A DNA stretch of 61,179 nt, counting the filler, from Hausera hauseri (taxonomy: Eukaryota): the NCBI GenBank assembly GCA_046269625.1. It is 11 parts of 11 records of this genome, joined end to end, with 100 filler letters (N's around TTAATTAATTAA, not from the genome) between each part and the next. Parts side by side here need not be neighbours in the genome. Positions count along the whole stretch, not along the records: positions 32,019 to 35,990 come from JBJURY010848747.1; positions 36,091 to 40,200 come from JBJURY010754320.1; 9 more parts are not named here. One strand, given 5' to 3'. A program made the position numbers and the translations under genes. Under the pieces are notes generated by a model, which ran no database searches, was not told the DNA's origin, and saw only the letters and a program-made list of their open reading frames with translations. Positions 969-57,432 of the stretch are shown one piece after another (the first letter of the stretch is position 1; the number at the start of each line of letters is the position of its first letter).

Positions 969-2119
969 GCCCCCCCCCCCCCCTTCCTGTCCACTGTTAG
1001 AGTCTGTGACAGCATAGAGGAGCAGAAACAGAAACCAAACAGGGCAGCGGCTCACTGTCACCATAAAAACTAATAGATAAACAGCAACTAAAGCGGTTTC
1101 ACAAATTATCTCTAATAATTTTACAATAAATTTATAACTGTTAATTTCATTCAATCATCATGTAAAATTGCAGCTATATACCAGAAAAACATGTATTTAT
1201 AGATAACAATATTCTAAAGGAGACCTGAAGTAACTGTAACATACATAGACTTTTTAGCTTTTTGAAAAATTTGGATTTCAGCTTGTAATAAAGTATATTT
1301 ATTATTTTTTACTACCATTAAAAAATAAATAATAATAAAGTCAAAAGTTATAAAATGTTCTCAGTATACCTATTATAGGATGAAACTTGTCTCTTTTAGC
1401 TAACCATCTTCTCAACAGGTCAGGTTACTCTAACAAACCTGAATATACTTACATTTATAATATTAGTTTAAACTCTTAGGTTTAAAGATTTATCAGAGGT
1501 CAAATCAGCTGTAATATTTAATAGTTTGTTTCAATTTCTAGCATGATTCAGCAGAGCTACACTGTATATATGCTCCACAAGCTAATATCTGCTAACAAGT
1601 TCAATAAATAGGTGATAACATCGATTTTAAAAGATTATTTTAATTTTAAACTGTTACATTATTAGCTTCAGTTCTGCTAAGATCACATTGAGGTAAATAA
1701 GATCAAATCTGCTTACTTGTCTTGTGAAAGGAGACGTTTTCCTGCTTCTCTTCTGTTAATAAATCCATAACACAAACAGCTTTTCTGACATTATTTAAAA
1801 CATTAGATTATATAAACTATAAAATATTAATAATTAATTAATAATTCATTTCTATGATTTTTACATCATCAGTCCTTTTTTCTGCCCTGTTACCACAGCA
1901 TTACTGTACAACATGTACAGTAATGGTAAATCCACTCTCTTGACCGTTTAGCGTTAGCCCTTAGCTTCTTCAGCTAATCACATGCTCACCTGGTTTCTGA
2001 GCACTCCAGCTGTTATATATACCTCCATGATCTGGCACTAAGTCTTGTCAGCAAACAAATACATGCCCCCCATAAACAGTGTGTTGAGAGTGGGTCGCAG
2101 TAACAGTTTCCTCAGCATT

Positions 2120-6141: not shown

Positions 6142-6573
6142 CACCCGTAATCTCCCCCTCCTCCGGCCGAGGAACGTTGAAATAGGAGGAGTTCAGACAG
6201 CAACTTCTGACAGCGAGAGGGTGTCACTTCAGTGCATTCCTAACGACGGCGAAGCAGCTTCTTACCTCCATCTTATCTCCACTTCACCCGAATCCATCAC
6301 CCCACGACGTTTCAGCTACAGCGGCCGCAGCAGCGAGGCTTCAACCGTCAATCTATCTGGTCAGTAACTGTTTTATTAATATGTATTTAATCGTGTTACG
6401 ATTCTTTACTAAATATTTCTGGTTAGTAACTGATTTAATAATATGTTTTTAATCATGTTACAAATCTTTACTAAATATCTCGTTTTATCATTTTTTTTCT
6501 ATATTTATACAATTTAATTTAACTAGATTTTCCCCCTCTTCTTTCTCTTAATTTAACTAGATTTTCCCTCTCT

Positions 6574-6631
<58 letters not shown>

Positions 6632-6757
6632 AGAAAAAAAAAATCCTCTAAAATGCCCAAGAGAATCAGACCCGCACTGGCACCAAGACGTCCACGAAAG
6701 AGGCCTCCACATCAACAGAGCTGGACAGAAAGAATGCCCGCTTCGAAACTGACGCCT
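6142..6757 (+). repeat. Copy 2 of the long direct repeat, with an internal ~60-bp tandem duplication and an expanded (CT)n tract
   Basis: Aligns to 1-475; (CT)n at ~6575-6628. Confidence 0.92.
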
Positions 6758-12839: not shown

Positions 12840-14343
12840 GCCGACCGTCAGAAAGCAATTGCATATCATCTGGAAAATTCTGATGATTTGATGCCTAGTA
12901 AATGGCCATGATTTTCTGCAATTTCTCTTCAGATTGTCGTTTGCAATTGAACAAAACTGAAAGATTAATTTGTACAAGCCGATACTGATTTGGATTAAGA
13001 GCAATGTCAGAAGTTGCAGATTTGTCATAAGTTTTGTAATTCATACACAATGACTTGTACAGATAGGATTCAAGAGGGTCACCTGATCCGTACCTCGTCG
13101 GTTCATCTAATATTACCTCGTACAATCGACCTTGTGAATTTTGCTGAAGCTTGTGCAAAGCACTTCCAGCTGTAGTCGGTGTGAAGTTTGTGCGCATTTC
13201 TTCAAACAGCTTTGTTGCTAAAGTTCCCCCAGTTCCCTCATATCCAGAAACCGTTGTCGAGACAAACACAAGCCCAGAAAAATAACGAAGATACATATTG
13301 ATAATATGCAATGGAATGGCCGCTGCTTCATCAATACACAACGGATCACAGTCCAACGACTGTTTCCGATGGTTCAACATAACGAATAATTTGAGAAAAT
13401 TTCCCTCGTTTTAATTCGAGCTTCTTTATGATTTTTGTCTTATTATAAACTGCGATGTTGTGTTTTCGTAATCAACGTGTTCCGAATATTCAAAAGCCTT
13501 CAATCCAAATTTCATATACTGCCATAAAATAATAATGTTTGTCTGACTTGGAGATGTTACACAAATCCGCCCAACACCGATCTGAAACGCAGCACATAAT
13601 GCCATGCCCAATGCTGCGGATTTTCCGCGACCACGAGCAGCAGTAACGAGGGTTGTTATAGACTGTTGTAAACCGTTGTCGTTTACATTATCGTGATGAA
13701 CAAATGTTCTTAACACTCTGAATAGAGTACACAAACAATGGGCATGATCATAAGTGGCACAGAGATTTACTAGTGGGAAAAAAAACAGAATCCGAAACCC
13801 TTAATGAATCCTTCAAAAAATTCAAATCTTCCTTCTTCTTCGTATTTGTATTTTTTTATGATTTATCGTTTTTTTCGAAACTTCCAATTCAAATTTATCA
13901 TTTAAGCAGAGGCAAAAATTTTCGTTCAAAAGCGACAATGTAAACCTGCGTAAAAATGTTTACTACTTGACTTCACGAATGACAATTTCTGCAATGGGGG
14001 TGTTAAGAATATAACAATTCCTCCTCCAGAAACGGTTTCTATACAGCGTGCAATCGTATTCGGCGTAAGCAATTCATAATCTTGAAAAATACAAATATCG
14101 AACGTCTGTCCGAGAATATTTTGAGTTTCCTCATACAAACACGATGTTGTGCTGCAGGGACAATTTTTCGTGGTATTTTTTCACAAAATAACGCGTGTTT
14201 TTGGTCCGCGTTATGACCTCATTCGAACAATCAGTCGAATATTCATAGACATATTTGTTGTTCTTCAAACACCAAAAGCAACCGAATTTGTTTGCGATGT
14301 TGCTTTTACATGTTTGGACGTGAGAACAGTAGAAAATGAACAA
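12840..14343 (-). pseudogene. NAT10: NAT10/Kre33 RNA cytidine acetyltransferase, N-terminal and helicase part, intronless and disrupted
   Basis: QDYELLTPNTIARCIETVSGGG, TAARGRGKSAALG, IDEAAAIPL, STTVSGYEGTG, EPTRYGSGDPLE. Confidence 0.93.
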
Positions 14344-15679: not shown

Positions 15680-18600
15680 TTACAATGTCACATGTCCGTG
15701 AGGTAATGTATGGATTCCATCGCTCAGGATCTGCCGCTTGTCATCCATCCAATCTATGCTTTTCTTATGGAGAGTTACTGTTTGGATGTTATGATCCCTA
15801 GATTGTATCCTTCTCATTTCCGATATAAAGTGAGTCTGCTCCTGCTGAACTCTCATTGTTCTCAAAACTGATCTTGGCCAATGTAGCCCTTTGAATGCCC
15901 TTGGCTATCTTTTTAATCTGACCACATACGTCTAGAGAATACATTCTGGACCTGAGAGCCACAAATTTCGAGAGGATCGCTCCATTTACCTCGTCTTTAA
16001 ATTTCCCAAAGACATTCTTATTGGCAATTAAATAGTTGGGATAATCATTCGGATGTTCCGAGGTATCCATGTGTTGAACCAATTGGGCAAAATCCTTATA
16101 AATATCATCTGTATGGATCTGATAAATGAAACTACCAGTATCCATAAACATCAGCTGCATGGACTTAAATGTGACGACCATGATGTCGTAGTGGAAATTG
16201 TACATCAAGGTCTTTGACAGGTCCAGTATCGCCATACCCACATATATGGGTTTGTTGAATACCAATGCTATTTTCAGCATGTGGATGCCTACCAAGTTCT
16301 CAGTATATATGGTGCTGATATGGAAGTTAGGCTCGGAAATAAGCTTCTTTGCCCGCTTCCAGTCACATACTAGCTCAATGTTGATCCTGTTGCGGATATT
16401 CTTCGTGGTCTTGCCAAAAACGCTGTTGTTATATAGTTTTTATTGATCTTTCTTAAAGTCTTTCTTGGCATTAGTCCGCAGCTTAGTATTGAGATTTATG
16501 TATGACTGCATCCACATGGACTGGTTGAACTGCAGGGCTCTATGGACCTTAGTAATGCGGAGTCAATGTCTAGCAGCTTGCTGGAGATTAATGAAATGAA
16601 CTACATACCTTTCCCTATTACCCATATGACAGAGCAACTTTCTATGCCTTCCATGAGCCGGAGACCTGCTCTCAGGGAGGAAAGGCAGCTGTTGATGCCT
16701 TGCGTGGATGGAAGCCGTATATTCCATTTCTACCTCCAGTATGTAGCTTGTATCTCCAGTGGGATCCAGGTCAAATATAGGGATGTTTTCAGGATTCTCA
16801 ACCCATTTGAAGTTATCATATGGCAATGCGACGCTCAATGCATATCCATACAAGTTGTTGGCATCCTGATATGATATATATGAGAATTCTTTGTTGAGTC
16901 GTATTCGGCCATATACTTGTTGTTGGCCTCACTATACCGGTGAATGGCTTGGCATATTCCGCCTCTAATGCCTCTCTTGATCATAAGGATTATATCATAA
17001 TCATTAATGATCTGCGGCCTATACCAGTATATCTCAACATTGCTGCCCAACTCATCCCTGGAGCCGTGAAGAAATGTGCCGGATCCAGTGCATGGCTCTT
17101 CATTGTAACATCCCTGAAACTCTCAAAGACATCCGTCAGCAACACATCCGTCTTGAGGTAAATATCACTGTATTCCCATATTGTTCTGCATTGGAATGCA
17201 TTCCAGACGTTTTGAGCTTGCNNNNNNNNNNGGCTATAAAAACCAGTATTTCCCATGATGTTATATAGTCATAGGGAAATATGCTTTTCTTCTTGACTAT
17301 GTCAAATGTAGTGGGGAAGAACCACTTCGTCTCCTTGAGTTCTTCTGCAAGGAAGTTCTTCACTAAACTATCCAGTGAAGACGACATGGAACAAAAGCTG
17401 TCAATGAAGCGAAGTCGGATTTTGCCCACATGCTTAGTGAAAGTGATATATTTCTCTTCACTGTTGGGGATCACATCTATATTACCATCAATGTTGCCTA
17501 ATTCTCGGACTATGAAATGGGAATCATAAACACTGAGATTATGAAACACTACAGACACATATGTGCATGTTTTGCAGCAAAGATTGAAGTTTTTGCATGC
17601 CGCGCCCCAATATGCATCTGTAAAATGGCAGTGAACCTTAACCTTCCAATTTTCCTTGGTGAAGGACTTGTCGCACAAGTAACATGCTGTTGCCTTGCGT
17701 CATTCTTCTTGTTTCCACGACATGCTCATATTATCCTTATGCTGCTGAAGCATATTTCCAAGCCTATGAGCCATGTCTTCAAGTCGTTTCATGAAATGTG
17801 CTGCTGCACCTGGACCTCTGAATAGAAATGGTTCACTGCCCAGTCCTTTGGCATACATGCAATACGATGAGAGTTCATGATATTGGTATGCCGTTGTTCT
17901 GCTATGTTGAGGACTGGGAGTGTAGCCGTGAATTGGCCAGATAATAGCTTCAAAGTCGCAATAGATAATTATTGGGACCTTGATCTTCTTCTTGAACTCC
18001 TTGAATTTAATATAATCCTCCTTGGGAAATTTTGGCCTGATACAATAATTGTTGTTGCAGTACATTTTGTTCTCAGCAAGCTTGTCCACAGCCGAATCAT
18101 CACTGAAATGGGAAAAGCATCGTTTACATATTTTTATTCTTTTCTTATGTTTCCTAATTTGGGATCTGACTAGACACTCAAAGATTTTGATCCAAACATA
18201 ATGTTTCTTTTCTGCATTGTCTAGTAGGAGCATATCCCTATGATCTTCCAATTCAGTATCATATATCTGCAGGGAACAAAATTTGTCCTCCTCATCCAAT
18301 CCAATAATGTTGATGGATATGTTGTTAATTCGGCAGAACTTCTTAATTTCATCTAAGGATGGAGGGAATGTGATAGATTGAAAGTCATAGTTGTGCTTCA
18401 GATTATTATATAGCCAAAGTCGATCTGCTGCATGTTTTTGATTCGGTACGAGTATTGGTAGAATGGCATACATGAAACACTTGTTGTCATTATTATGGAC
18501 ATTGACACATGCTTTTTATTAGCGATCCATTCCGGAAGCTGAATATAAGAACTGACCCGCATTGGAGAGTACTTGTAAACATACACAAGCAATCTGTTGA

Positions 18601-18843
18601 TAGTTGCCAGAGCCCATCCGCTCTTTTTACTCTGGCTCTCATCGGCTTCATGGATCAGCTTTGCATGCTCTTCATGCAGCCATTGTACTATATTGGTGGC
18701 TTCAAAAATGGGTCTATTTATGGTCTTGAAGTCCCTTTTGGACTCTTCGGCATCAGCATTGACGTATGTGGCTTCCAGTTTTATATTAGCCTTAATGGCC
18801 TTGAGCTCAGCTATGTTGTCCTGGAGAATCCCCTCTGTTTCTT
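15680..18843 (-). pseudogene. polB: Polinton/adintovirus-type protein-primed DNA polymerase B with endonuclease VII-like insert, frameshifted
   Basis: SGWAL..YSPMRVSSYIQLP, IYCDFEA, KVHCHFT..GAAC, FHNLSVYDSH, DANNLYGYA, YNNSVFGKT, FMDTGSF, GKFKDEVNG. Confidence 0.95.
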
Positions 18844-18945
18844 NNNNNNNNNNNNNNNNNNNNNNNNNNNNNNNNNNNNNNNNNNNNTTAATTAATTAAN
18901 NNNNNNNNNNNNNNNNNNNNNNNNNNNNNNNNNNNNNNNNNNNAA

Positions 18946-20847
18946 TCACATGGTAAAATAAGTGTAATACCACACAACCAAGAACGCTACATCACCTTCA
19001 CGAAGCATGTGGGGAAAATTGCGTTGCGGTTCATCGACAGTTTCAAGTTTATGAGTAGCAGTCTCGATGAACTAGCTAGAAATCTACCTCCGGATGCCTT
19101 CATGGAAACAATGCGGTATTTTGATGACAATCGATTGTTCAATTTGGTGACAAGAAAAGGTGTATTTCCATATGAATACATCACCGACTTGAGCAAATTG
19201 GAAGAAACTTCATTGCCACCGAGGGAAGCATTTTCCAGTTCCCTATATCAATCAAATGTATCAGATGAAGATTATGCACACGCACAAAAGGTATGGGAAG
19301 CATTCAACTGTGAAAATATCGGTCAGTACAGTGATGTATATTTGAAGACGGATGTATTAATATTGACCGATGTATTTGAAAGTTTCCGTGCAGTGACAAT
19401 GGCATCACACAAAGTTGATCCGGCTCACTACTTTACAGCACCGGGGATGGCATGGAGTGCAATGCTGAAGATGACAAAGGTAAAGCTGCAGATCATAAAA
19501 GATTACAATATGCTGCTAATGGTGGAAAGTGGAATTAGAGGTGGTCTATATCAAGTCATACATCGATATGCTGAGGCAAACAACAGACATATGCATGAAA
19601 TGTATGATGCAAGAAAACCGGATACGTACATAACATATTTAGACGCCAACAATTTGTACGGATGGGCTATGTCTCATTACTTACCATATGGTGATTTTGA
19701 ATGGATAACATGGACTGGAAATATGGTGGAGGACATACTCGATATACGAAAAACAGCATCCACAGGCTACATATTTGAAGTGGATGTGGAGTATCCGGAA
19801 AGCCTACATGTAGACCACGATCAGCTACCATTTCTACCTGAATTGGTAAAACCACCAGGAAGCAGGTGCAGTAAAATTAAGAAGTTAATTCCCCACCTCG
19901 GTGGTCGGCAGAGGTATGTGGCATATTACCAATATCTGCAGCAGGCAATCAAACATGGATTGAAAATAGTGAAAATCCATCGGGTAATAAAATTCAGTCA
20001 GTCTCCATGGTTGAAACCCTACATTCAATTTAACACGGAATTACGAAAGTTGGCCAAAAACAACTTTGAAAAGGAGCAATTTAAATTATATAACAATTCT
20101 GTGTTCGGAAAAACTATGGAGAATATCCGAAATCGACAGCACATTGAGCTGGTAAACGACTGGAGAAAAGCAAGAAAACTCATCGCAAAAACCAATTTCC
20201 TCAATTCACAAATTTACTCTGAAAAACTCGTTAGCATCCACTTGGCAAAAACCCAACTGGTATTCGATAAGCCAATATACGTTGGAATGTGTATATTGGA
20301 CATGAGTAAATTACTCATGTATGAATTCCATTATGATGTGATGCTACCAAAGTTTGGGTTGAATCAACTGCAGTTGATGTATATGGACACAGACTCGTTC
20401 ATGTATAAAATTCAGTCAGCAGATATATTTGAGGATTTTCATGAAATGGCGTCATTCTTGGATACAAGTGAATATCCCATGGACCATCCAAATTACTCAA
20501 CACAAAACAAAAAGGTGTTGGGAAAATTTAAGGACGAAGTAAATGGTGCCATTATCACAAGATTTGTGGGCCTTCGTCCAAAAATGTATGCTTTGGAAAT
20601 TGATGGTGGTATTATCAAAAAACGAGCGAAGGGTGTACAGCGTGCTGTGCTGCAAAAACATGTGAAATTTGATGACTTCGTGAAAACATTGCACGATGAA
20701 CGAACTATGTTACACACAATGCATGCAATCAGATCACAGGCTCATACAGTAACAACAGTCCAGATACAAAAGGTCAGTCTGAGTAGACATGATGATAAAC
20801 GAGAGATTATGGATGATGGGATAAGAACTAAATCATTTCTACTGTAA
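18946..20847 (+). CDS. polB: Protein-primed DNA polymerase B (Polinton/adintovirus-like), 5'-truncated by contig start, uninterrupted frame
   Basis: FIDSFKFM, RKGVFPYEY, YLDANNLYGWAM (A), KLYNNSVFGK (B), YMDTDS (C), LRPKMYA, KRAKGV. Confidence 0.97.
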   Translation, partial: SHGKISVIPHNQERYITFTKHVGKIALRFIDSFKFMSSSLDELARNLPPDAFMETMRYFDDNRLFNLVTRKGVFPYEYITDLSKLEETSLPPREAFSSSLYQSNVSDEDYAHAQKVWEAFNCENIGQYSDVYLKTDVLILTDVFESFRAVTMASHKVDPAHYFTAPGMAWSAMLKMTKVKLQIIKDYNMLLMVESGIRGGLYQVIHRYAEANNRHMHEMYDARKPDTYITYLDANNLYGWAMSHYLPYGDFEWITWTGNMVEDILDIRKTASTGYIFEVDVEYPESLHVDHDQLPFLPELVKPPGSRCSKIKKLIPHLGGRQRYVAYYQYLQQAIKHGLKIVKIHRVIKFSQSPWLKPYIQFNTELRKLAKNNFEKEQFKLYNNSVFGKTMENIRNRQHIELVNDWRKARKLIAKTNFLNSQIYSEKLVSIHLAKTQLVFDKPIYVGMCILDMSKLLMYEFHYDVMLPKFGLNQLQLMYMDTDSFMYKIQSADIFEDFHEMASFLDTSEYPMDHPNYSTQNKKVLGKFKDEVNGAIITRFVGLRPKMYALEIDGGIIKKRAKGVQRAVLQKHVKFDDFVKTLHDERTMLHTMHAIRSQAHTVTTVQIQKVSLSRHDDKREIMDDGIRTKSFLL

Positions 20848-25729: not shown

Positions 25730-27625
25730 TACCCCCACCGACAAAAAGGCAAAAAATATCTAGCAACGTCGATACAGCCAATTATATGAATATAATTAAT
25801 TGTGGTTCGCATAGTGAAACTCATAATGGTTACATTATTGACGAAAATCTGTACAGCCGTCAATTATATGTTATTGGAAAGGAATGTATGAGGAATACTG
25901 CCAATTCTAACACTGTAATATCGGGACTTGGTGGTCTAGGTGTAGAAACAGCGAAAATTCTCATTTTGGCTGGTGTAAAATACGTTTATGCTTCATGATA
26001 AAAAATTGGTTTCGTCAAGTGATCTTTCATCACAATTTTATTTCAAAAAGTCTGATATTGGAAAGGATCGAGCCGAAGCTTGTCTGGTCAAATGACAAGA
26101 ACTAAATTCATAAGTTATTGTTAACCAAAGCTCAGAAGATTTAACATTGAATTTTCTTAAACGATTTACACTAGTCTTCCGGACGAATTCAACTCACGAA
26201 GAGTGCATAAAATTAGGAAATGTTTGCCATAGCAATAACATTCTACTGATTATTTCACGAAGTGCTGGACTTTTCGGTCGAGTTTTTTGTGATTTCGGCA
26301 CCGAACATTTAATTAATGATGCTATTGGTGAATAGCCGTTATCTATTATGATTCAGAGTGTTTCACGCGAAGAAGGAATCGTTCTTTGTTTAGAAGAAAC
26401 AAGACACGGTGTTGAAGATGGTGACTGTGACGTTTTCCGAATTTAATGGAATGACCGAATTGAATAATTGTGAACCACGGGAAATCAAGGTTGAGGGCCC
26501 AGTAAGTTTCAATATTGGTGGCACGTCGAAGTTATCATCGTACATTCATGGTGATGTTTTTATGCAAGTGAAAATGCCTCAGACTGAATCGTTCAAGTCT
26601 TTTGAAGAAGCTTACAAATCATCGGAATTTGTTGAGTGATTTTGTCAAAATGGAAAGACCCGAACAATTGCATTTGTTGTTATCTTTGGTGGATAAAGTA
26701 TATCCGAATGACTTTCCAAGTCTCTTAAAACAACTGAAAGAGGTCCGTGAAACAGCGTTTCCAAATATCGAGTTAAATGAAGAACTTGCTTCGTCATTTT
26801 TCAACTATACTAATGGAAATCTAGCTCCGATGCAGGCTGTAATCGGTGGTATTACAGCACAGGATGTATTCAAAGCAACTTCATCAAGATTCTTTCAGAT
26901 TAAACAATCCTTTTATTTCGACGCATTGGAATGTTTACCGGACAGTAGCGAGTCAGAAAACATTGCTAATGGATCCAATCCACTCACGTGGAGTACAAAT
27001 CATACGACAGATATGGAAGCCAGATTTCCTTTTTCAGCGTTGATGTCCAACAGAAGCTTTCCCATTTAAAATTGTTTATAGTCGAGTCCGATAAAACTGG
27101 TTGTGCATTGTTGAAAAGCTTTGCTGTAATGGGCGTTGGATCGATGTTCGAGGGTCAGGTCAGTTATAATTATCGATATGGACAATATAGATAAGTCCAA
27201 TCTTAATCGACAGTTTCTTTTCCGACCGTCGGATATCGGCAAATTGAAATCGTTGACTGCGGCAAAAGCATTCGATTTGAAAGTTGGTAAAGAAACCGAG
27301 TCTTTCTTTGACGATTCGTTTTTCGACAGTATTGACATTGTTGCAAAGGCACTGGATAACATCGACGCCCGAATGTACATGTGTATACGATGTGTCTTCT
27401 ATCAAAAACCGTTGCTCGAGTCGGGCACTTTAGGAACGAACATCCAAGTTATCTTTCCTCACTTGATTGAATGGTACAGTTCATCACAATATCCACCGGA
27501 AAAGTCAATTCCAGTTTGTACATTGAAGAATTTCCTATACACAATCGATCATACTATCCAATGGTCAAGTGACATGTTTGAGGGGTTGTTTACTCAGCCA
27601 TCGATTGCTGCACTACAATTTTTAA
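25730..27625 (+). pseudogene. UBA1: Ubiquitin-activating enzyme E1 (5' ~60%), intronless and disrupted
   Basis: [84 protein letters not shown] (active-site Cys). Confidence 0.96.
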
Positions 27626-28682
27626 ATATCAGGGAAAAAATTATTAACTCTGCTAACAATTCACAGTCTACAGAAAACTTCGAAAACGCTGTCATTATTG
27701 CATTTATGGTCGCCGATATGCTTAACGAATTGATTAATAAAAAATTCGATGTTCTCATAAACTTTCTTATTGGTACTTGTTCAGACAAAATTAAAACTGC
27801 CGATGTGTACCTCCAGGTCATTGATCTTCACATTTACAATTTAATTTTGTATTTTGTTTTAATGGCTCAGCTGTTATGCCGCATTGGACGGTATGGCGAA
27901 ATGCCTTATGCTTTGAATTCACTAAACAGAAAGATGACCTCGAATAATTCGAAATTGTTTACCACAAGTACAACTGGCACTATGAAGTAACTGAAACCCA
28001 ATCCACACGAGCTGTATCCTCTATTAAGAAACCGAAACCTTCTTTTCATCCTATTTGCAATAAAACCGACTAAAAGGTACATTGGATTTAATGGTCTATG
28101 ATCTAATTGAATCTTGTCGAAATTATTTGAAAGTTAAATGCTTCGAAATTGTTTGACAAAATTTTAGTGAATCCCAAAGTTTTAGATTGCAACACATCGC
28201 TGGAAGATGACGAAAGGACATGCGAAAGGCGATGAAGTTAATGCCAAGCAAATTGAATCTGCCAGAAACCCATGTGTCTGTCTGTCAAATCGACGCTCAC
28301 TGTCAAGTGTTGGACTTCGAACTTTCTGGCCCAGACCACCGTAATAATCCAATGGACGTACTGCGAGTCAACAGCAACCTCACCGATCGACTGGCAGACA
28401 TTCCATCATTAGAGGCATCTAAACACAGGTTGGTGAAGTTCTCTTCTCTGATTCACGCCCGCCAGTGCGACCATTTTTTGCGAATATACAAATCTTTCAT
28501 AGCTAACACCATTTTTCATTGTAAGGGGGTTTTTAAGCTCAACAACTTTGGATATTCCTTTATCACAATCATCATTTGCCACTTCTTCCCCGGCTGTACG
28601 CTCGAACCTCTCCTTAACCCAGAAGGAAACCGCCCAAGCCCCCCATGCATTTCAACATTATCCTCGGATTACCTCGCTGCAA

Positions 28683-31918: not shown

Positions 31919-32522
31919 NNNNNNNNNNNNNNNNNNNNNNNNNNNNNNNNNNNNNNNNNNNNTTAATTAATTAANNNNNNNNNNNNNNNNNNNNNNNNNN
32001 NNNNNNNNNNNNNNNNNNGAAATCATCCACCTTCAGGAACCGAAATCTAGAAGCCCTTGAATATAAATGGGAGTTAGACTTCATGTACACTTATTAATGA
32101 TAGTAATGAATAGTGTTTTTAGAGAATCGCATTCTCATATCCTCCTGGTTGATGGTGGACGAGAAGATCATTACAGGAGGATGTCAAATTAGGCATGGCC
32201 AGTAAGAATATTTGTTAGTTTTTATTCAACAAGACGAGTTAAAAATTTGTATAAAGATTGTCGATTAGTTTATCAGGTTATAATGAATACCAGTAGGTGC
32301 AGGCTGACTTCGGTCACCGTGCCGCCTGAACTCCGGCTTTGGATGAGGCTGATAATATATCTATATGAACTTCTCACGAAAACAAGAATCCTGTTGGGTT
32401 ACCTTGTCTACTATAACTAATTCTTTAAGTTGCTTTACATGTTAATATAATTCTCAGCAGGGACAATTGTCAGATAAATAAGAAATAACCCACACCCAGC
32501 TAACCTGCTAACTAACATAAAT

Positions 32523-32540
32523 TGGTGCCCCGAGTGAGGA
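32523..32540 (+). promoter_or_regulatory. Primer-binding site complementary to elongator tRNA-Met
   Basis: TGGTGCCCCGAGTGAGGA, 17/18 to TGGTGCCCCGTGTGAGGA; preceded by ACA-taaat. Confidence 0.75.
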
Positions 32541-32612
32541 AGTGTTTCAAATGTCCTTATCTCAGTCTTTTAAAATAAAAACCGTTGACTTAATTTTACA
32601 GAATCCAGCACA

Positions 32613-32876
32613 GTGGAATGCGGAATTTGCTTTCGCGAAATTCATCTACGACATGCTTTATTTGTCAGGTGTACCCATTTAACCTGTGTACCATGTGCAA
32701 ACAAATGGCTCAGTAGACAGCAGAATTGTCCTGTCTATCGACGAAAGGTATCGAGTTATAATTGCATGGGAAATACCGTAGTAGTCCTCCCGGATGACGA
32801 AAATGAAGAAGTTGAAGAGGACCCCAATCTGATCTATCTGGTGGGACCAAATGGAATATTACACATATTGATATGA
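32613..32876 (+). pseudogene. Small RING-HC finger gene with acidic tail
   Basis: CGIC-x13-CTH-x2-CVPC-x10-CPVY (last Cys to Tyr). Confidence 0.8.
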
Positions 32877-33255
32877 AGTAGTGACTGTGGGATATTTACA
32901 ACTGTAGTAGTTTTATTAATCTGTTAAGAATTGAATAAATTCCTGTGGTTATTGACAATGATTAATAATACGATAAAGGAAAGATGGTTAAAATGATTAT
33001 TAAAATTATTAGTTTATTTGTCATTAAAGAGAAAGAAAAGTTGGAGGATGAAGAAGTATCAACATTGCGATAACTGTTTCGAAACAACTGGTTTAGAGTC
33101 ATTTAGTATGACTATAAAATTAGATTTTTGCACATTAATCGGTGAAAATATAGAAGAAAGAAATGTCTATTAAAATAGATAGTAAAAGAGAATAAATAAA
33201 CCAGTATTGAATTACGAGTTAATTATGGAACTATATATTAACAGACATTGCTTTA

Positions 33256-33495
33256 GCGTGTACTATATGCCAGAAATATTCCATAACTTTAATGGAAGGA
33301 AATAATCCTTGTTCTCTGTGCAGATTTATCATGGAACTGGGAGAAGAGGATAACTAAGTCAGATGCAGTCACTGCGGAGAAACGATAGACCTAGAGATAG
33401 CCACGATGGATGAAAATTGCCTACCTTTATGCCCAATATGTGTGCTGACGCTAGCAGATATAGACGAAATAAATATGTTATTGAATAATTTGTAA
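33256..33495 (+). pseudogene. Double zinc-ribbon ORF (four CxxC), one internal stop
   Basis: Manual translation ACTICQKY..NPCSLCRF..*VRCSHCGE..PLCPICVL; absent from the ORF track. Confidence 0.6.
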
Positions 33496-33550
33496 ATAAC
33501 AATTGTAATACTCAATAAATGTCAAGTTCTCATAAAGTTGATATATAAAT

Positions 33551-33988
33551 ATGGAAATTAAACGATAGTATTTTATAGAAACCTCTCATATCTGCCTGGA
33601 GAACCTGACCCAGGAACAAACAACTTTGCCTTGCGGTCATCAGTACTGTCCGCATTGTATACTTACATGGCTATCCGAACAAACCACTTGTCCATGCTAC
33701 CGAAGAGCATGCACGTTTTGTACAACATGCTTAACTATAGTAGTGGATACATTGGCAACACTTCCTTGCCAACGAGCCTTTTGTCAAAACTGTATAACAG
33801 AACATTTCAAGATTTATCGAACATATCCTTCTTGTTACGAGTTTACAGATTTTTAATTTTTGGGACAACTAATTGTTTATCTGGACGTTGACAATAGACA
33901 GTCAAGAATACAATTAATAGATGAGGATGAAGAAGAACGGCAGGATGAATGGAGAAATGCCAGACCATTTATGATTGCTGACTCATAG
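33551..33988 (+). pseudogene. Tandem double-RING gene with acidic tail, in-frame stops
   Basis: HICLENL..TLPCGHQYCPHCILTWL..CPCYR then CTTC..TLPCQRAFCQNCI..YPSC; DEDEEE tail. Confidence 0.75.
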
Positions 33989-34648
33989 GCTATTGTATAT
34001 AAATTATTATTGTATATGAAATGTCAATAAAATTAATGTATTCATTTCATTTCGGAAAGGGATTAATATCAGTTCTATTAAGGTTCCCTTTGTCTACTGT
34101 GCAGAAGGCACATCTTATGCTACGGATTCCAAGTCCCTTGTTTTCACGTGACACCGAATACTCACCCCATCTATAATCCACAAGGAATATTTACTCCTAT
34201 AGGAATGGCCTGCACAATCTGTTTACATCATTATTTCGTAAACCCGGTGGAGTTGGTCACATGCAGACGTGAATTTTGCCTCTCCTGCTTAAAGGAATAG
34301 TTCCTGATATCAAAATCCCGCCCTTTGTGTCGTGCAAATAATAGACTATTTCGAAGCGGAAACCTATACTTTACTGTACGAAATTTATAAAAACATTCTT
34401 GTTCTTACAAGCCATTTAATTGTGCGGGATGAAATAAATATAATTATTACCCACAAATAGAATAATTGATTAAAACCCATTTCGTTTTAGACGAAATGCA
34501 AAGGATCGAATATACGGAATACAGAACGTCGAAATAGTATGAATGTCAGGAATCATCTAAACTCTATATAATAAGATACTTACGATATTACAGAATTAGA
34601 CAAAATTGACCAGCTACGATTATTAGAAGAACTATAGATTATACAAAG

Positions 34649-35701
34649 ATGGAAGTGATTGACAACTCAGTGAGAGATACGCAGACGAGAAAAATATTTT
34701 TGAGCCACTCGAATTCACCCGTTCCAGGAGAGTTAGCACAGCCATATGCAAACACTGGATTATTTCGAACCACGTCTGGACGAATAAAATGCCTATAGTG
34801 CCAGGGAGAGTTCCTTTATGAGTCTACAAACTTTTATTCAAAAAGGACTCATAGGAAATTATATACTACCTGTCCTTATTTGTTAAACATTAATGCTAAC
34901 AACGTACCACTGAGAGATTGCTTTTCTAAATAGCCTGATGTAGAGGCGGATACTGGTTACGATACGATAATACCAATTTGAATGGTTTACGCAACGGATA
35001 ACGCTGTGGAAAAAAACGTATACCTAATTTCAAGCACAGTACAAAGAGAAAGTCAACCTTCAAAGGAAACAAGAATATTGAACATTTAGCCAGACAAGGA
35101 CTAATATTAATCTTAAAAGGCGAAGAGTAATATGTAAAATGTACCATATGTTTAAAAGAAACTTACCAGAAAATATTGACCAGCGATGTCCAAGCATATT
35201 GCATACTACCAAATGCAATTATTTAATTTGTAAAATCCTCCAGAGTTACACTACAAGACGATGCCGAATACAATTCGATATGGGAAACCTTTACGAGCGT
35301 TACCAGGAAAGTCCAGTAGCCGTATCAATAATAGCCTGACATCCTACAAAGCGTAAAAGTATACTACAAGATATTAAATATCGAACAGAAATTCAATCTG
35401 ACTGGTCTATAAGTGCATTCGAACTGTTTCAGAATCTAAATTTTGTTTCTCCAGAGGAAGAGAGAGAACCAGAACAAAATATTCTAATGAACTTTACCTG
35501 CGCGATTTGGAGTGTACAATCTGCTACGCAGACTCAGTGCAAGTTATCCTTTTGCCTTGTGGTCATTTGAAAACATGCGAGGAATGCTCAAATCGAACAG
35601 CGAATTGTTCAGTTTGCAGAAGTCATATAGAAAGAAGAATAACATGTCTCCAATTTTCAGAAATGAACATAGAGAATATCTCTATTTTGAACGAACACTG
35701 A
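34649..35701 (+). pseudogene. Inhibitor-of-apoptosis-like gene (BIR-BIR-RING), intronless and disrupted
   Basis: BIR1 R..F...YANTGL...IKCL*C...H...TCPYL...NNVP; BIR2 RKSTF..LARQGL..VKCTIC...HTTKCNYL; RING ECTICYADSVQVILLPCGHLKTCEECS...CSVCR. Confidence 0.8.
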
Positions 35702-36175
35702 CCAATAAATTAATGTATAACCGATATGAATAAATAAATGTTTATTAGCCTATGTATATGAATTTATTAAATAACCCCGCATTGTGACAGATTGAACAAA
35801 TTTGTTTATAGAATTAGCAAATATCAACAGCATAATCCTGAACAACCTCAACAATTGGACAATCCAGTTACTGACTATAAGAAATCAACCCCTAAAAGAG
35901 TTTACGGATGGTAAAAACTATACAGTAATCCTCTACTCAATAGGATAACGGAACTAGGATACTCCAAATATCTGGCTATGATTGCCATCANNNNNNNNNN
36001 NNNNNNNNNNNNNNNNNNNNNNNNNNNNNNNNNNTTAATTAATTAANNNNNNNNNNNNNNNNNNNNNNNNNNNNNNNNNNNNNNNNNNNNATTTGACATG
36101 GGATCATGATCAGTGATTTTGAGAAATATTACTTAAATTATAGACAAAACATGCTTGTGACAGAAATATTATTAA

Positions 36176-37477: not shown

Positions 37478-38690
37478 TTATACAATAACGGTTCCGTTTT
37501 TCGTTATTTCAACCTGGGCATCAAATACACCGTAAATGTACATCACAGTAGACTGCTCCGACGCTTTAACAAAGTGAACCTCCAATCGCAGGTTTACCTG
37601 CTGAGGTATTTGAGTCTGTTCAACGTCATAATATGGCACCAAGACAAAGGTAAAGAATGGATAGGTGGACTTGAACAAATCCATCGATATGCCATTGTTG
37701 ACATTTTTGTTCAACAAACCCATGTTGCGCACGATATATTGCATGTATGTGCAAACATAATCATTAGACTCAAAGTTTTGTTTGTACGTCTCAACAAAAT
37801 CCGCATTCCAGCCCAAACTGATGTAATTTACATTGCTATGGCTAAATGTTTCCGAATCGGTCGTATAACTGCCCGTTTGTTGAACGGTCGTTTGAAATGT
37901 AACGAGCACAAATTTCGGCAATCGCATGTCACCAAATTGTGCATCTTTGTAAAACGTTGTCGAACCTTTGGGTATGGTATAAAACAAAAGTTTTGTGCGT
38001 TGTATCGGGTAACAGGCATTTACGTTGGATCTACCTTTACACGACGTACGTATAATCGTGCCTCAGTAATTTTCAGTATGGGTTTGAGATTTGTAATTGC
38101 AGTTTTCAAGCAAAATCATTGTCGCTGCGTTTGAGCCGAATCACGACTTTAACACCGGGCATTAGGTGTTTCGGCTGATCGAAAAAGTCAAAGTACAGCG
38201 GTCCACACATGATAAGCGCTTTTGATTCTGCTACCCATGCCTGATGGTTTGGCGCTGTGGCATCGTATCCGATGGTTTTTGTCAACTGAGTCGTTTTCGT
38301 GTCTGCACTGTAATTCAGAGCTGTTTCAATGAGTGCTTTGATATTGCATAGATTGGTGTTGCCTTCAATTTTGACGCTGTTTAGAGTCAGTGAAGCCTCC
38401 TGAAACAGTGTGAGGAAAAGATAATTGGCCGGTGTGACAGTGTCTGTTGCAGCGAGAACCGTCAATGCATCCTTTTTAACAATGACTTTTACATATAGTA
38501 GTGTATCGTTCAAATCCAGGTATTTATTGTCCGATGCCATAATGTTAAATTGAATATCAATATTATTGTCCGTTGAAACAGAATCAACGGGGTAGATTTC
38601 TTCAAATACTGCATTGTCAAAGACACCTTGTGGTGCGCCTTTGCCAAATATACACAATTAAGATTTTGCAAATGCAATTTGCCTATCAAT
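37478..38690 (-). pseudogene. Polinton/adintovirus double-jelly-roll major capsid protein
   Basis: AKS*LCIF, YLDLNDTLLYVKV, PANYLFLTLF, KALIETALNYS, GPLYFDFFDQPK, LRLEVHF; one frameshift near 38000-38100. Confidence 0.9.
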
Positions 38691-39042
38691 CGAAAATCGT
38701 ACAACGACGTCATTTGTTTATAGTTGAAAAGCTAGCTGATGTACCACTACGTTTTTTCAAGCCACTATCAGCGAATTGTTTCTTGACTGATCCAACGACT
38801 CCCGGTGCAACAGTTTTTATTTATCACGAGGCGTGTTCCTTCAGTGATGGTAAAATCGATTTGTTTTCATAAGATGTATCCTGTGCTGTTTTTGCAGTCA
38901 CGGATCCAATACGCTTCAACACTGGAAGTGCTAAACGTGCCAGTGTACGCAACCATCCAGAGCCATACTGTTAACCAACGAAATACGGCACTTCACCACC
39001 TTGTTGAGGTTTACTGTAAATGGAAACGATTTCAGAATCAAT
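38686..39042 (-). pseudogene. Small Polinton virion protein with Gly-Gly motif and amphipathic helix (pVI/pX-like)
   Basis: Manual translation IDSEIVSIYSKPQQGGEVPYFVG*QYGSGWLRTLARLALPVLKRIG...; lies between penton and MCP. Confidence 0.7.
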
Positions 39043-40111
39043 TATGTTGTTTTCGACGGAAATGAAGCATTTGAGTGGTTGTGGTACTGTATAGAAATTC
39101 GATAAAGTAGGCCGCGTCACATCTACTATTGACTTCAACATTGTTTATAGATCTAGATGCCACAGGTAGGTACATTGGATTATCGAGCTTGACAGTGACA
39201 TTGTCGCAAGCAGTATACTTGCTGCCGTCCGGATAAATTGCACGGAGTAGCGGTACACGTACTCCACCGACCAAAATGGGTTCGGTGACGTTCACGTAAA
39301 TCTACAATTGACTTAGACCAATTTTCAGTTTGGGTATAAGTGTTGCAACATGTGCCGCCACCGCCTTCGATGCCTCAAACCACTGTTTTTCAAAACCCAA
39401 TATCATAGCCAAACCTTTGTCCAATGAAATGTCGACAATATCCTTAGCCAGTTCAAATTTTATGTACCCATTTGTATCCAACTCAAAAACTTTAAATATC
39501 TCCTTGTACTTTTGATTTGAAGAAGAAAAGTGTAGACAGAGATGTGCTACAGATTCGCAATAGACGTTGTCTCCAATCGATACATATGACGTTGACACCC
39601 TTTCCGTTGTATAGGTAAATTTTACCGTTGTTTGGTAATACACGTGACTTAATTTTGGACCAACTACATATTCACTTTTAATATGTTTACCTTTGTACTC
39701 TGTATTTTTGAATCCAAATTTCTGCGCATATCAGAGGACTCAAAAGTAACAGTAAATTAAAAATCTCATAAAATGTAAGTTCTGATCTAAAATAAAAATA
39801 TCGATTTTGCAGTGTGAACCGTAATTTGCTTCGGTCGTGCAAATGGTCGATTCTTCAACTGTTATTTTATTGTTAGTAAATGTCAGGGGACAAGACTGTG
39901 TTTTGGTTTCAGTAACAGTCTTGTTGTACGTTATTTTCATACTACCTTTAAATGCCACCGGTGCGTAGGGAAAGTTAAATTCCGTCAGAGCAACTTCCCA
40001 TTTTCCAGATAAATCCAAAGGATCGTTCCAGTCTACAACGTATTCACTGGCTGAATTGTTCGGACGAGTCGTCGGACAACTGTTGCTCAGCAACACCATG
40101 CAAATACTCAT
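39038..40111 (-). pseudogene. Polinton minor capsid (penton) protein
   Basis: VLLSNS...NSASEY..PLDLSGKWEVALTEF; VGGVRVPLLR; PMYLPV; LHFRRK. Confidence 0.9.
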
Positions 40112-40124
40112 GATCTCGATGATT

Positions 40125-40200
<76 letters not shown>
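40125..40200 (+). repeat. (ATG)n microsatellite at contig end
   Basis: ~25 perfect trinucleotide units. Confidence 0.97.
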
Positions 40201-55127: not shown

Positions 55128-55446
55128 NNNNNNNNNNNNNNNNNNNNNNNNNNNNNNNNNNNNNNNNNNNNTTAATTAATTAANNNNNNNNNNNNNNNNN
55201 NNNNNNNNNNNNNNNNNNNNNNNNNNNACGATAATCGAACCTACTCAAAAACTTCATACGGACTAGAGGTAATAGAAAGATCCACAAAAGTGATAACGAC
55301 GACTACTTCTACAAAAATACCGTCACCTACTTCAGTGTTACCGCGAGAAATAGCGACAAGTCCAAAAGTTGAAATGAAAAAGTTGTTAAAGAACTGGACA
55401 TAACAGTGCAACCAACGACACACTCCCTCATCATTACATTACCGAT

Positions 55447-55896
55447 TTGAAAACAATAAATGTAATATTTGAATGCTTCCTTCACAACAGGATGGTAAAT
55501 GAAGGAGTAATCACATCAGAAGAACCAACATCGGCTTGTTTCTTTTTAAAGGGCGATGCGAATTATAAAATTCTATTCACAGAATTAGACGAAGAAGGGC
55601 AAAGCTTGCAGACTGCTATTCGAATGGAGAAAACTTTGAAACAAATACTTATGATAACTAAAAGTGTTATAAAAACAACTACAATACAGAGTTCTGGAGT
55701 CATTTCAAAAGGATACCTCGAAGTAATCGTTATTGTTTTCGGTACTTCCCTACTATTAATAGTCATGTTGCGCCCCTTAGTACATTATATAAACAAAAGG
55801 CGTAGAATAAATAAGACAAAAATTATATTACAACAACTTAAACTATTAAGGGAAGATCCTCAAAACAATCGAGATATAAATCAACATCCATTTTAA
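55447..55896 (+). CDS. Orphan ORF fragment with one C-terminal transmembrane helix
   Basis: YLEVIVIVFGTSLLLIVML followed by basic KRRR; preceded by a Thr/Ser-rich stretch. Confidence 0.4.
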   Translation: MKTINVIFECFLHNRMVNEGVITSEEPTSACFFLKGDANYKILFTELDEEGQSLQTAIRMEKTLKQILMITKSVIKTTTIQSSGVISKGYLEVIVIVFGTSLLLIVMLRPLVHYINKRRRINKTKIILQQLKLLREDPQNNRDINQHPF

Positions 55897-56172
55897 ACCT
55901 ACCTTGGCCAATATTAATGTACCCTTTTTTAGTCCAAGAAGGACCAGAAACAGATCAGTGCCCAATTCCTTTATAACAGTATTATTGCCAACCTAATGGC
56001 AACAACCCATAAACATTTTTGTTATTTTGGGAAGACCTCTTTAATCCAGAACAACCTAAAAGGACACGCAGTCGGTCAAAGAAGTGACCTCATCATCAAA
56101 CTACCACGTCCCTCAGTCAGATTTTCAGATCTCATGGAACTCTCAAATCGGATACTAGCCGCATACATTTAG

Positions 56173-56935
56173 GTGAATAAAGAAAACATACAAGTGAAGA
56201 GCACAGTTAACCCCAATGGTACGACAGACACCATCGAAATAATCCCACAGATCACGATCCATTTTGATCAAAGATTTTACAGAAACGTCGCAATAACAAT
56301 ACGAACCCTCATTAGTCGTTGTCCATTCATCTACATTGAAATAGCTAAGAGGGAATTCTTCATTCGACCCATCTATCAGATACCCCACTACAGCAAGCCT
56401 ACCCCAAATGACTCTCAGTTGGAAAAACGGATCTCCTTCACCAGATATCCAACAGTACAAAATAATCAAATATTAATTATGGCAATCAATTCCGCCGATT
56501 TGATGAAACCAATCGGGAAGAAAGAAAAAGTCCTGATAGAAATTACTCTCATGGATTTGGACGAAAACGGCATGCTCGACCACATTCTCTGTCCAAGATA
56601 TAGGATTGACAGTTATAATTGTCATATCACTGGCCTAAAAGAAACAGATATAATTAGCTGGACAAACTTCCTGGAAATGGAATCTGAAATCAGAAAACAC
56701 TTGGTCGGAAAAATTATTGTCGGTATGGACGTCTATCATATATTCATCCATACCTATCCCTATAAATATGAAAACCTACTAGGTCTGAGAGACCTTCTCC
56801 ATCACGATTATACCAGTCCTAATGGCAATCAGACAGAAAAGCAACTCCTCTCCAGAAATAATTACCAACGATAAAAGCAAAAGCATCGACGATGTTAAAA
56901 ATTTACAATTCTATCTCCGAATATCGAAATGAGTT
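56173..56935 (+). pseudogene. Degenerate DEDDh (REX4/ISG20-like) exonuclease-fold gene
   Basis: IMAINS..LIEITLMD..LDHIL.P..IDSYNCHITGL..IRKHLVGKIIVG..LRDL; SIDDVK in a shifted frame after the stop. Confidence 0.65.
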
Positions 56936-57432
56936 CATAAATCAAAAACATGATAAAGAAAGTCTGACATGAATAGATACAGGAAAATCTGTGAAAACAC
57001 CGATATTGACGTCCTCTCAGGCAATGGTGTCAATACAGACATCTTTTCAATTGATAGCACCAATCCCGACGCTTTCTCAAAGACCAGTGCCCAACCAGAC
57101 ACTTTCCCTGAGTACAACTTCAATTTAAATGCCCTCTTCAAATGCGGAACCAATCAATTGGCAACCCTTATTATGAGATATTTTATCTACTTCAGATACC
57201 ATAGACCTCACAAAAAGGAATAAAAGAACAAAAAGCACACTTACTTTTAAAAGAAAAATCAAGGAGGACAAGCGGCGGTTGGAATTAGATGCTGCCAGAT
57301 ACTGACGTCTGGACATATCCTTAAAGATCTACCCATTGAAGTCTAGGACGGCTTTGCAGTGTGACGGATATCATTTCAATGGTCGGCTGCGCATCTTGTG
57401 GAGATTTGTTCAGTGAATTACCAGCACGACAC

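What the first reader, a model, noticed from the sequence alone, without database searches (positions are those of the whole stretch)
32019..35990. tRNA-Met PBS followed by a RING / zinc-ribbon / double-RING / IAP cassette instead of gag
Seen: ACA-taaat-TGGTGCCCCGAGTGAGGA (17/18 to elongator tRNA-Met), then at least four compact, intronless, co-oriented Cys-rich genes. Most are followed by AATAAA, and acceptor-like motifs occur (ttttacag just before 32601, ttttatag near 33575). Established: BIR-BIR-RING IAPs and small RING E3 ligases are typical accessory genes of large invertebrate DNA viruses. From memory (to be verified), giant planarian Gypsy elements carry BIR domains. Inference: a giant LTR retroelement with a virus-like anti-apoptotic and ubiquitin-ligase toolkit, or an LTR capture of DNA-virus genes.
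Basis: partly seen in the sequence, partly recalled or inferred. Interest (0 to 1): 0.72.

Follow-up and report, generated by a model that had tools for sequence, protein, structure and literature searches.

The report
Spliced ubiquitin-ligase array in retrotransposon
A decayed copy of a repeated, likely LTR-type jumping gene carries a row of small ubiquitin-ligase-type genes and a cell-death-inhibitor-type gene right behind its priming site; they are likely expressed one at a time by splicing from one shared leader and would help the element disarm host defences.

Summary
The finding is one whole 3,972-base contig; the window joins 11 unrelated contigs, so its flanks are not linked. The LTR end and primer-binding site (PBS) are real. 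Another copy in run X1 leaves the sequence exactly at the ...TAACA end (32517). The same 18-mer follows TAACA in 47 of 58 metagenome hits (48 from one assembly) and precedes Pfam-confirmed gag in two loci. Behind it lie decayed genes: RING, zinc-ribbon-like, double RING, RING, an intronless IAP collinear with an intact natural protein (E 2.7e-49), and an unknown truncated gene. New here: in 5 of 5 anchored genes the best nearby splice acceptor is in phase 1, and each gene has an AATAAA near its end. Both best donors inside the LTR are phase 1 behind a short ATG. Two RING genes carry SUMO-interacting-like motifs. Best reading: the 5' accessory array of an LTR retroelement family, expressed as alternative last exons from an LTR leader. 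Not shown: gag-pol, giant size, any transcript, DNA-virus origin. It resembles planarian Burro in cargo, not in layout.

The parts
32019..32517 (+). 3' part of an LTR, ending ...TAACA; its 5' end lies off the contig; no perfect AATAAA in it
   Evidence: record 5 (9 differences in 120 nt) leaves the sequence at exactly 32517. Same terminus before this PBS in 47 of 58 hits. AATAAA list.
32062..32067 (+). TATA-like box, candidate LTR promoter (inferred)
   Evidence: Sequence only.
32195..32207 (+). Candidate shared leader end: ATG, two codons plus one base, then donor GTAAGA at 32202 (phase 1), upstream of the PBS
   Evidence: one of two donors scoring 4 or more of 7 in 32025-32600; no RNA evidence.
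32283..32298 (+). Second candidate leader end: ATG, three codons plus one base, then donor GTAGGT at 32293 (phase 1); lies in a ~55-nt stretch shared with more diverged contigs
   Evidence: (loose ends at 32284, 32285, 32295 and 32339); no unusual fold and no Rfam family.
32523..32540 (+). 18-nt primer-binding site, tRNA-Met type
32602..32876 (+). Gene 1: phase-1 acceptor, no ATG before the RING in its frame, C3HC4 RING (last Cys lost), SIM-like motif plus acidic tail; AATAAA at 32934
   Evidence: Pfam E 6e-8; a sister copy aligns without gaps over 32517-32640 and lacks the upstream out-of-frame ATG.
33048..33173 (+). Possible 41-aa CxxC ORF (uncertain); acceptor phase ambiguous; AATAAA at 33191
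   Evidence: No Pfam hit.
33245..33495 (+). Gene 2: phase-1 acceptor, four CxxC pairs (zinc-ribbon-like), one internal stop; AATAAA at 33468 and 33514
   Evidence: Only sub-threshold zinc-ribbon hits, best E 0.005.
33579..33988 (+). Gene 3: phase-1 acceptor, two RINGs, SIM-like motif plus acidic tail behind one internal stop; AATAAA at 34026
   Evidence: Pfam zf-C3HC4 E 3.5e-14, 2 stretches.
34203..34460 (+). Gene 4: phase-1 acceptor, ATG at 34205, decayed RING; 3' end uncertain; AATAAA at 34433
   Evidence: Pfam zf-RING_2 E 4e-4 when read through with X.
34491..35701 (+). Gene 5: phase-1 acceptor, ATG at 34496, intronless IAP pseudogene (BIR, degenerate BIR-like unit, helical domain, RING); AATAAA at 35704 and 35729
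   Evidence: Collinear with natural P0001 (403 aa), tblastn E 7e-81, 41-54% identity; BIR; model pLDDT 70.
35812..35990 (+). Gene 6: acceptor, open in phase 1, unknown product, broken and cut off by the contig end
   Evidence: sister contigs cover it; no Pfam hit; UBA-like look only marginal, 7 of 300 shuffles.

Best explanation
This contig is a decayed copy of the 5' end of a multi-copy, likely LTR-type retroelement, in which a row of RING, zinc-finger and IAP genes lies behind the primer-binding site and is likely expressed as alternative last exons spliced from one short leader inside the LTR; the products are predicted to be ubiquitin ligases that would blunt host cell death and silencing. 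SHOWN: the LTR end, the PBS, the gene row and its decay, same-phase acceptors, and an AATAAA near each gene end. INFERRED: (1) the LTR promoter makes a leader ending in ATG plus a few codons plus one base; (2) it is spliced to any one acceptor, and the RNA ends at that gene's AATAAA; (3) because the donor precedes the PBS, spliced RNAs lose the PBS and cannot be reverse-transcribed, so the acceptors survive copying; (4) unspliced read-through RNA would be the genome, with gag-pol further downstream or supplied in trans; (5) the IAP would block apoptosis, and the two RING + SIM-like proteins would act as SUMO-targeted ligases, like herpesvirus ICP0. Odds by step: LTR element 0.85, cis-spliced array 0.6, SUMO-targeted activity 0.35.
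For: LTR boundary: one contig leaves the sequence at 32517, another joins it there and follows PBS plus gene 1 (10 differences in 124 nt), and a third with 0 differences bridges 32384-32640. Family: 1,560 contigs of run X1 lie on the stretch at 80% or more, 887 of them under 90% alike. PBS: 47 of 58 exact hits follow TAACA by 1-5 nt, and base 19 varies, A35 C13 T6 G4; Retrotrans_gag + CCHC directly follows in L062 and L071. Acceptors: the best-scoring AG within 40, 60 or 90 nt of the first Zn-site codon or ATG is phase 1 in 5 of 5 anchored genes. Chance from phase alone is (1/3)^4 = 0.012. A strong, open phase-1 acceptor within 20 nt occurs at 224 of 3,385 positions (thresholds chosen after seeing the data). 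Both best LTR donors are phase 1 behind an ATG. SIM-like motif: 2 of the 4 hits in 122,354 six-frame residues of the window fall in genes 1 and 3 (consensus). Intact, 49%-identical natural IAP relatives keep the Zn ligands. Precedents: foamy-virus major donor in the LTR R region; Burro with BIR, RING-related and SUMO-like domains and an upstream accessory ORF.
Against: No gag, pol, env or second LTR is linked to the contig. The boundary evidence is one contig on each side, from a run that may be the window's own source, laid at 80% likeness. The sister copy that shares PBS + gene 1 has a different 75 nt upstream, so the leader may not be common to all copies. Summed depth is 13-44 over the LTR but 240-1,950 over most of the IAP, the reverse of what a twice-per-element LTR predicts, unless the 5' part is subfamily-specific. 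Genes 1, 3 and 4 may be tandem duplicates, so phases are not fully independent (three classes give only 1/9). The 41-aa ORF is a tie between phase 0 and 1. Genes 4 and 5 have their own ATG; gene 3 has an in-frame ATG and a TATA-like stretch upstream of a stop. The donor matches are modest (4 of 7). In five other elements with this PBS only 3 of 6 ORFs had a phase-1 best acceptor. Up to ten sense AATAAA sites would have to be read through to make a genome, and how is unexplained. The spacer (5 nt) is longer than in 46 of 47 TAACA hits.
Confidence: 0.55

Rival explanations
1. Same LTR element, but the array is an operon resolved by spliced-leader trans-splicing, or each gene has its own small promoter.
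For: The layout AATAAA - about 55-180 nt - acceptor resembles trans-spliced operons (operon description). Unchecked earlier notes call the host a probable flatworm, a group that trans-splices. TATA-like stretch and ATG before gene 3.
Against: The flatworm leader ends in AUG, which needs phase 0; all five anchored acceptors are phase 1. A leader without AUG would leave gene 1 without a start before its RING. Own promoters would not explain a common phase.
Confidence: 0.15
2. A non-autonomous LTR element carrying passive cargo: captured host or viral mRNA pieces and tandem duplicates, with no gag-pol and no working expression programme.
For: No gag within 3.45 kb of the PBS; genes 1-5 all carry lesions in this copy. 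Other contigs of the window hold intronless host-gene scraps beside Gypsy-like sequence, and earlier notes describe such capture in this sample.
Against: Captured mRNA pieces would not each start with a same-phase acceptor. The IAP family is remote from every named host IAP seen and has intact members at about 49% identity. All cargo is from one functional theme.
Confidence: 0.18
3. An endogenous large DNA virus or Polinton-like element whose IAP/RING region received, or was captured by, an LTR fragment.
For: Intronless IAPs are common in large invertebrate DNA viruses (one search lists many). Polinton-like genes, recognised by eye, occur on other contigs of the window. The IAP end is far more repeated than the LTR end.
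Against: No viral core gene in the contig. No relative in viral contigs. Listed viral IAPs are all 13-23% identical to the modelled relative. The PBS-gene 1 junction exists in at least two diverged copies. The Polinton-like contigs are unlinked.
Confidence: 0.08

Closest known systems
Burro / GYPSM1 giant Gypsy-like LTR retrotransposons of planarians (review PMC6431247; passages and section 7 read; the primary paper was not held)
   Same: LTR element carrying BIR, RING-related and ubiquitin/SUMO-related cargo; one Burro-like element has an accessory ORF upstream of the gag polyprotein; tampering with apoptosis and ubiquitination was proposed there.
   Different: Burro's BIR and most cargo lie inside a ~5,000-aa polyprotein. 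Here they are five to seven separate small genes behind the PBS, each with an acceptor and poly(A) signal, including a complete BIR...RING IAP. Size and polyprotein are unknown here.
Foamy viruses and other complex retroviruses (PMC5035957; passages read)
   Same: Major splice donor in the LTR R region, upstream of the PBS, feeds subgenomic RNAs.
   Different: Their subgenomic RNAs share the 3' LTR poly(A) site and accessory genes lie 3' of env (recalled). Here each gene has its own AATAAA and lies directly behind the PBS. Walleye dermal sarcoma virus has one ORF before gag (recalled, not checked).
Bdelloid rotifer LTR retrotransposons with accessory ORF3 (PMC5408684; passages read)
   Same: Family-specific accessory ORFs expressed from spliced messages.
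   Different: An ORF3 after pol (env, GDSL, DEDDy); no RING in the text (0 hits), no 5' array.
Viral IAPs and viral SUMO-targeted ligases such as ICP0 (PMC8616421 passages)
   Same: BIR + RING architecture; RING plus hydrophobic-acidic SIM-like motif.
   Different: No close sequence relative; carried by an LTR element; activity untested.

Membership tests
LTR retrotransposon / Metaviridae-like element | LTR 3' end in CA, repeated elsewhere in the genome | tested here: met
   one other copy ends at exactly 32517; TAACA terminus shared with 47 of 58 PBS hits.
LTR retrotransposon / Metaviridae-like element | tRNA primer-binding site next to the LTR | tested here: met
LTR retrotransposon / Metaviridae-like element | gag and pol (PR-RT-RH-IN) between the LTRs | tested here: inconclusive
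   None in the 3.45 kb held; the contig ends; no longer locus was found.
LTR retrotransposon / Metaviridae-like element | Second LTR, polypurine tract, target-site duplication | not testable with these tools
   No genome held; contig too short.
Burro / GYPSM1 | BIR and ubiquitin-related domains as cargo | tested here: met
Burro / GYPSM1 | Cargo within one ~5,000-aa gag-env-pol polyprotein | tested here: not met
   Separate ORFs with their own stops; the intact relative is a free-standing 403-aa protein.
Burro / GYPSM1 | Length over 30 kb; RT clade | not testable with these tools
   No RT linked.
IAP protein family | At least one BIR domain with CCHC zinc site | tested here: met
   P0001 Pfam BIR 27 bits, above cut-off 22.9; window 34748-34894 E 8.5e-7 with my own BIR profile.
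IAP protein family | Second BIR, as in baculovirus-type BIR-BIR-RING | tested here: inconclusive
   5-7 bits; 0 and 2 of 300 shuffles reach it; R, G and three Cys align with other IAPs; His spacing is shortened.
IAP protein family | C-terminal C3HC4 RING | tested here: met
IAP protein family | Inhibits apoptosis or binds caspases/IBM proteins | not testable with these tools
   Needs an assay.
SUMO-targeted ubiquitin ligase (RNF4/ICP0 type) | RING plus hXhh/hhXh core with acidic flank | tested here: met
   Genes 1 and 3; motif is degenerate and often non-functional; in gene 3 it lies behind a stop.
SUMO-targeted ubiquitin ligase (RNF4/ICP0 type) | SUMO binding and SUMO-dependent ubiquitination | not testable with these tools
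   Needs an assay.
Endogenous large DNA virus / Polinton | Core genes (PolB, capsid, ATPase) or terminal inverted repeats linked to the cassette | tested here: inconclusive
   None in the contig, which is only 4 kb.
Flatworm SL trans-spliced operon | Leader's terminal AUG in frame (phase 0) for genes lacking a start | tested here: not met
   Phase 1 in 5 of 5.

The most novel reading that the evidence does not exclude
A family of animal LTR retroelements has evolved a virus-like 'early region' in front of its replication genes: one LTR leader exon spliced to a row of alternative last exons, each with its own poly(A) site, encoding an IAP and SUMO-targeted ubiquitin ligases that disable host apoptosis and silencing, while loss of the PBS keeps those mRNAs out of the copying cycle.
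Probability: 0.4. Interest if true: 0.82.

Novelty: new variant of a known kind. Interest (0 to 1): 0.62.

Why it matters
Retrotransposons are usually seen as gag-pol(-env) units that endure host silencing. An element with a multi-gene, alternatively spliced and polyadenylated counter-defence region would bring them closer to complex viruses. It makes the open proposal that giant LTR elements tamper with apoptosis and ubiquitination (PMC6431247) testable gene by gene, because an intact natural IAP relative exists. It also poses a clear puzzle: how genomic RNA is made through many internal poly(A) signals. The searches (listings only) showed no such layout. The library lacks most subscription papers, Repbase and the primary Burro paper, whose supplements may bear on this.

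Tried and rejected
No genome is held, so the contig could not be extended. No RNA holder was listed. Word-based protein searches with the decayed IAP and with gene 3 found nothing. Locus scans with the IAP RING or the family alignment were empty in viral, metagenome and prokaryote contigs. The 15-mer PBS scan of viral contigs gave 13 hits, none with TGG before it and none a tRNA 3' end; ARAGORN found no tRNA in the 58 metagenome loci. The primer tRNA itself was therefore not found. No tblastx match between the contig and those 58 loci beyond the PBS: they prove the PBS, not the cargo. Gag-like ORFs 2.5 kb (L063) and 3.4 kb (L054) behind the same PBS were not confirmed by Pfam; L063 has only E 0.002 to L071 gag. 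My idea of a UBA domain between BIR and RING was not supported: 19, 88 and 211 of 300 shuffles reach the score. A ribozyme or structured RNA in the LTR was not supported. The first fold, 4 sequences, was useless at pLDDT 31. The second model depends on an alignment with other IAPs, so its domains lean towards them. A RING-only FastTree of 138 sequences groups the window copy with seven unnamed ENA proteins (support 0.79) but holds no named viral IAP, so origin is unresolved. Joints listed (15 of 33 shown) have no GT..AG ends and look like deletions in decayed copies. The Atlas gave no result for any query. Earlier-finding searches by words and sequence were empty.
Full report
Setting. The window is 11 contigs joined by N-TTAATTAATTAA-N spacers; the finding is the whole contig 32019-35990. 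It has no real match to the other ten, so the Gypsy RT just upstream and the Polinton-like genes elsewhere are not linked to it. No genome is held. One run, X1, holds half its words and may be the source sample. Unchecked earlier notes call the host a probable flatworm and describe other retroelements with accessory genes in the same sample; I did not test the host's identity.

LTR end and PBS. The contig starts inside a 499-base stretch ending ...AACTAACA at 32517, followed by TAAAT and an 18-mer at 32523-32540. Of 18 contigs laid on 32200-32680, 8 pieces were listed. One (9 differences in 120 nt) leaves the sequence at exactly 32517. One joins at 32517 and follows to 32640 with 10 differences and no gap, with 75 unlike bases before. 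One bridges 32384-32640 with no difference. An exact scan for the 18-mer gave 58 metagenome loci, 48 from one assembly. TAACA precedes it by 1-5 nt in 47 of 58 and base 19 varies. In L062 and L071 Pfam finds Retrotrans_gag and CCHC right behind it; two further candidate gag ORFs were not confirmed. It matches a published Met PBS at 16/18, or 17/18 for a variant in that table (PMC1084362, one passage), and a Met-CAU 12-mer at 11/12, tied with two other 12-mers (supplement 1 of PMC13524379, search hits). So the PBS is real and used by gag-bearing LTR elements; 'elongator' is recalled.

The genes. CxxC motifs number 23 on + and 4 on -, against at most 8 in 500 shuffles. Pfam finds RINGs in genes 1, 3 (two), 4 (weak) and 5; gene 2 gives only sub-threshold zinc-ribbon hits. 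HMMER over 1.84 billion proteins gave one strong hit, P0001 (403 aa, E 2.7e-49), an unnamed ENA protein on a 15,990-base record. P0164 and P0002 are 49% identical to it. The window gene 34496-35701 is collinear with P0001 from Met1, without introns, and has three frameshifts and seven stops; sister contigs carry indels at the three frameshift sites. BIR1 is firm. The second unit is BIR-like but degenerate, and a UBA is not supported. A model of P0001 (pLDDT 70) matches cIAP1, NAIP, XIAP and DIAP1 domains and viral IAPs only remotely, 13-23% identity among 50 listed. Origin from host or virus is unresolved. The family is repetitive: 1,560 contigs lie on the stretch, far more on the IAP end than on the LTR end (depth is not copy number).

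The layout, which is the new part. I scored every AG with a simple acceptor rule, written after noticing the pattern. The best acceptor upstream of the first Zn-site codon (genes 1-4) or of the ATG shared with P0001 (gene 5) lies 5-17 nt away and is in phase 1 in 5 of 5 genes, for windows of 40, 60 and 90 nt. The doubtful 41-aa ORF is a tie. Gene 6 is open in phase 1. Phase alone gives 0.012; if the three RING genes are duplicates it weakens to about 1/9. Such an acceptor occurs within 20 nt at 224 of 3,385 positions. Gene 1 has no ATG before its RING, and the sister copy is gap-free there and lacks the upstream out-of-frame ATG, so it needs an upstream exon. The two best donors in 32025-32600 (32202, 32293; score 4 of 7) each follow a short ATG-started frame in phase 1 and lie upstream of the PBS. 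An AATAAA lies 3-58 nt behind the stop of genes 1, 2, 3, 5 and the small ORF, and near the uncertain end of gene 4; the total count is only mildly raised, 33 of 500 shuffles. Genes 1 and 3 carry a hydrophobic core plus acidic run matching the SIM consensus (PMC8616421, passages); they are 2 of only 4 such hits in 122,354 six-frame residues of the window.

How it most likely works (inferred). The LTR promoter makes a short coding leader that is spliced to one of the acceptors and polyadenylated behind that gene: an array of alternative last exons. With the donor before the PBS, as in foamy viruses (PMC5035957, passages), spliced RNAs cannot prime reverse transcription, which explains why acceptors persist in a retro-copied element. 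The products would be E3 ligases: an IAP against cell death and two SUMO-targeted ligases against silencing. How a full-length RNA passes the internal poly(A) signals is unexplained.

Results against. No gag-pol, second LTR or transcript was seen. The boundary rests on single contigs at 80% likeness. The LTR is less repeated than the IAP. One sister copy has a different upstream sequence. Genes 3-5 could start on their own ATGs. Other elements with this PBS show no phase rule, 3 of 6 ORFs. Trans-splicing fits the spacing but not the phase, since flatworm leaders end in AUG (PMC12582326, passages).

Comparison. Burro elements carry BIR, RING-related, BCL2, TRAF and SUMO-like domains, mostly inside one ~5,000-aa polyprotein, with one upstream accessory ORF in one species (PMC6431247, section 7 read). 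Rotifer LTR elements have spliced accessory ORF3s after pol (PMC5408684, passages). The metazoan errantivirus survey does not mention RING or BIR in its main text (PMC13524379; abstract, passages, section 5 part 1 of 2). This locus works like Burro in cargo but fails the polyprotein test, so I do not file it as Burro. Searches (listings only) showed no 5' multi-gene array. The primary Burro paper and its supplements were not held.

Verdict. Observation confirmed; interpretation partly supported. New variant of a known kind; interest 0.62; best explanation 0.55.

Noticed in passing
window 26572-27990, 57531-59355, 12895-13410: Decayed, apparently intronless host-gene pieces (E1/UBA1-like, importin-beta-like HEAT repeats, NAT10 helicase) lie on the same contigs as related Gypsy-like sequence, as in the host-mRNA-capturing family of earlier notes.
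   Followed up: partly
window 55228-57300: By eye, the end of an env-like transmembrane ORF followed by a DEDD-exonuclease-like ORF (56173-56874); no Pfam hit. Possibly the 3' accessory region of another large retroelement.
   Followed up: partly
window 15798-20847 and 37478-40200: Polinton/adintovirus-like polymerase and capsid-like ORFs recognised by eye on three separate contigs; no Pfam support.
   Followed up: partly
window 32285-32339: A ~55-nt LTR core, containing the second candidate donor and a small hairpin, is shared with contigs that differ on both sides; folding is not better than shuffles.
   Followed up: partly
L014-L071 (48 of 58 loci from one assembly): Another eukaryote has at least two LTR families with this exact PBS: one with gag right behind it (L036, L062, L071) and one with an AT-rich leader lacking long ORFs for up to 3 kb or more (L054, L016, L026).
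   Followed up: partly
L068 (about 1028-3334, minus strand): A 769-aa ORF beginning at the PBS-like 18-mer holds, by eye, a RING-like motif and a ubiquitin-like stretch fused ahead of a Gypsy gag, followed by protease and RT; a second RING-before-gag case, not tested.
   Followed up: no
window 1-472 and 6142-6757: Direct repeat of about 0.5-0.6 kb, 6.1 kb apart, 72-91% identical; possibly tandem copies or LTR-like ends.
   Followed up: no
P0006, P0048, P0161, P0162: Further unnamed ENA IAP-like proteins group loosely with this family in the RING tree (support 0.79-0.82); they may mark related elements in other hosts.
   Followed up: partly
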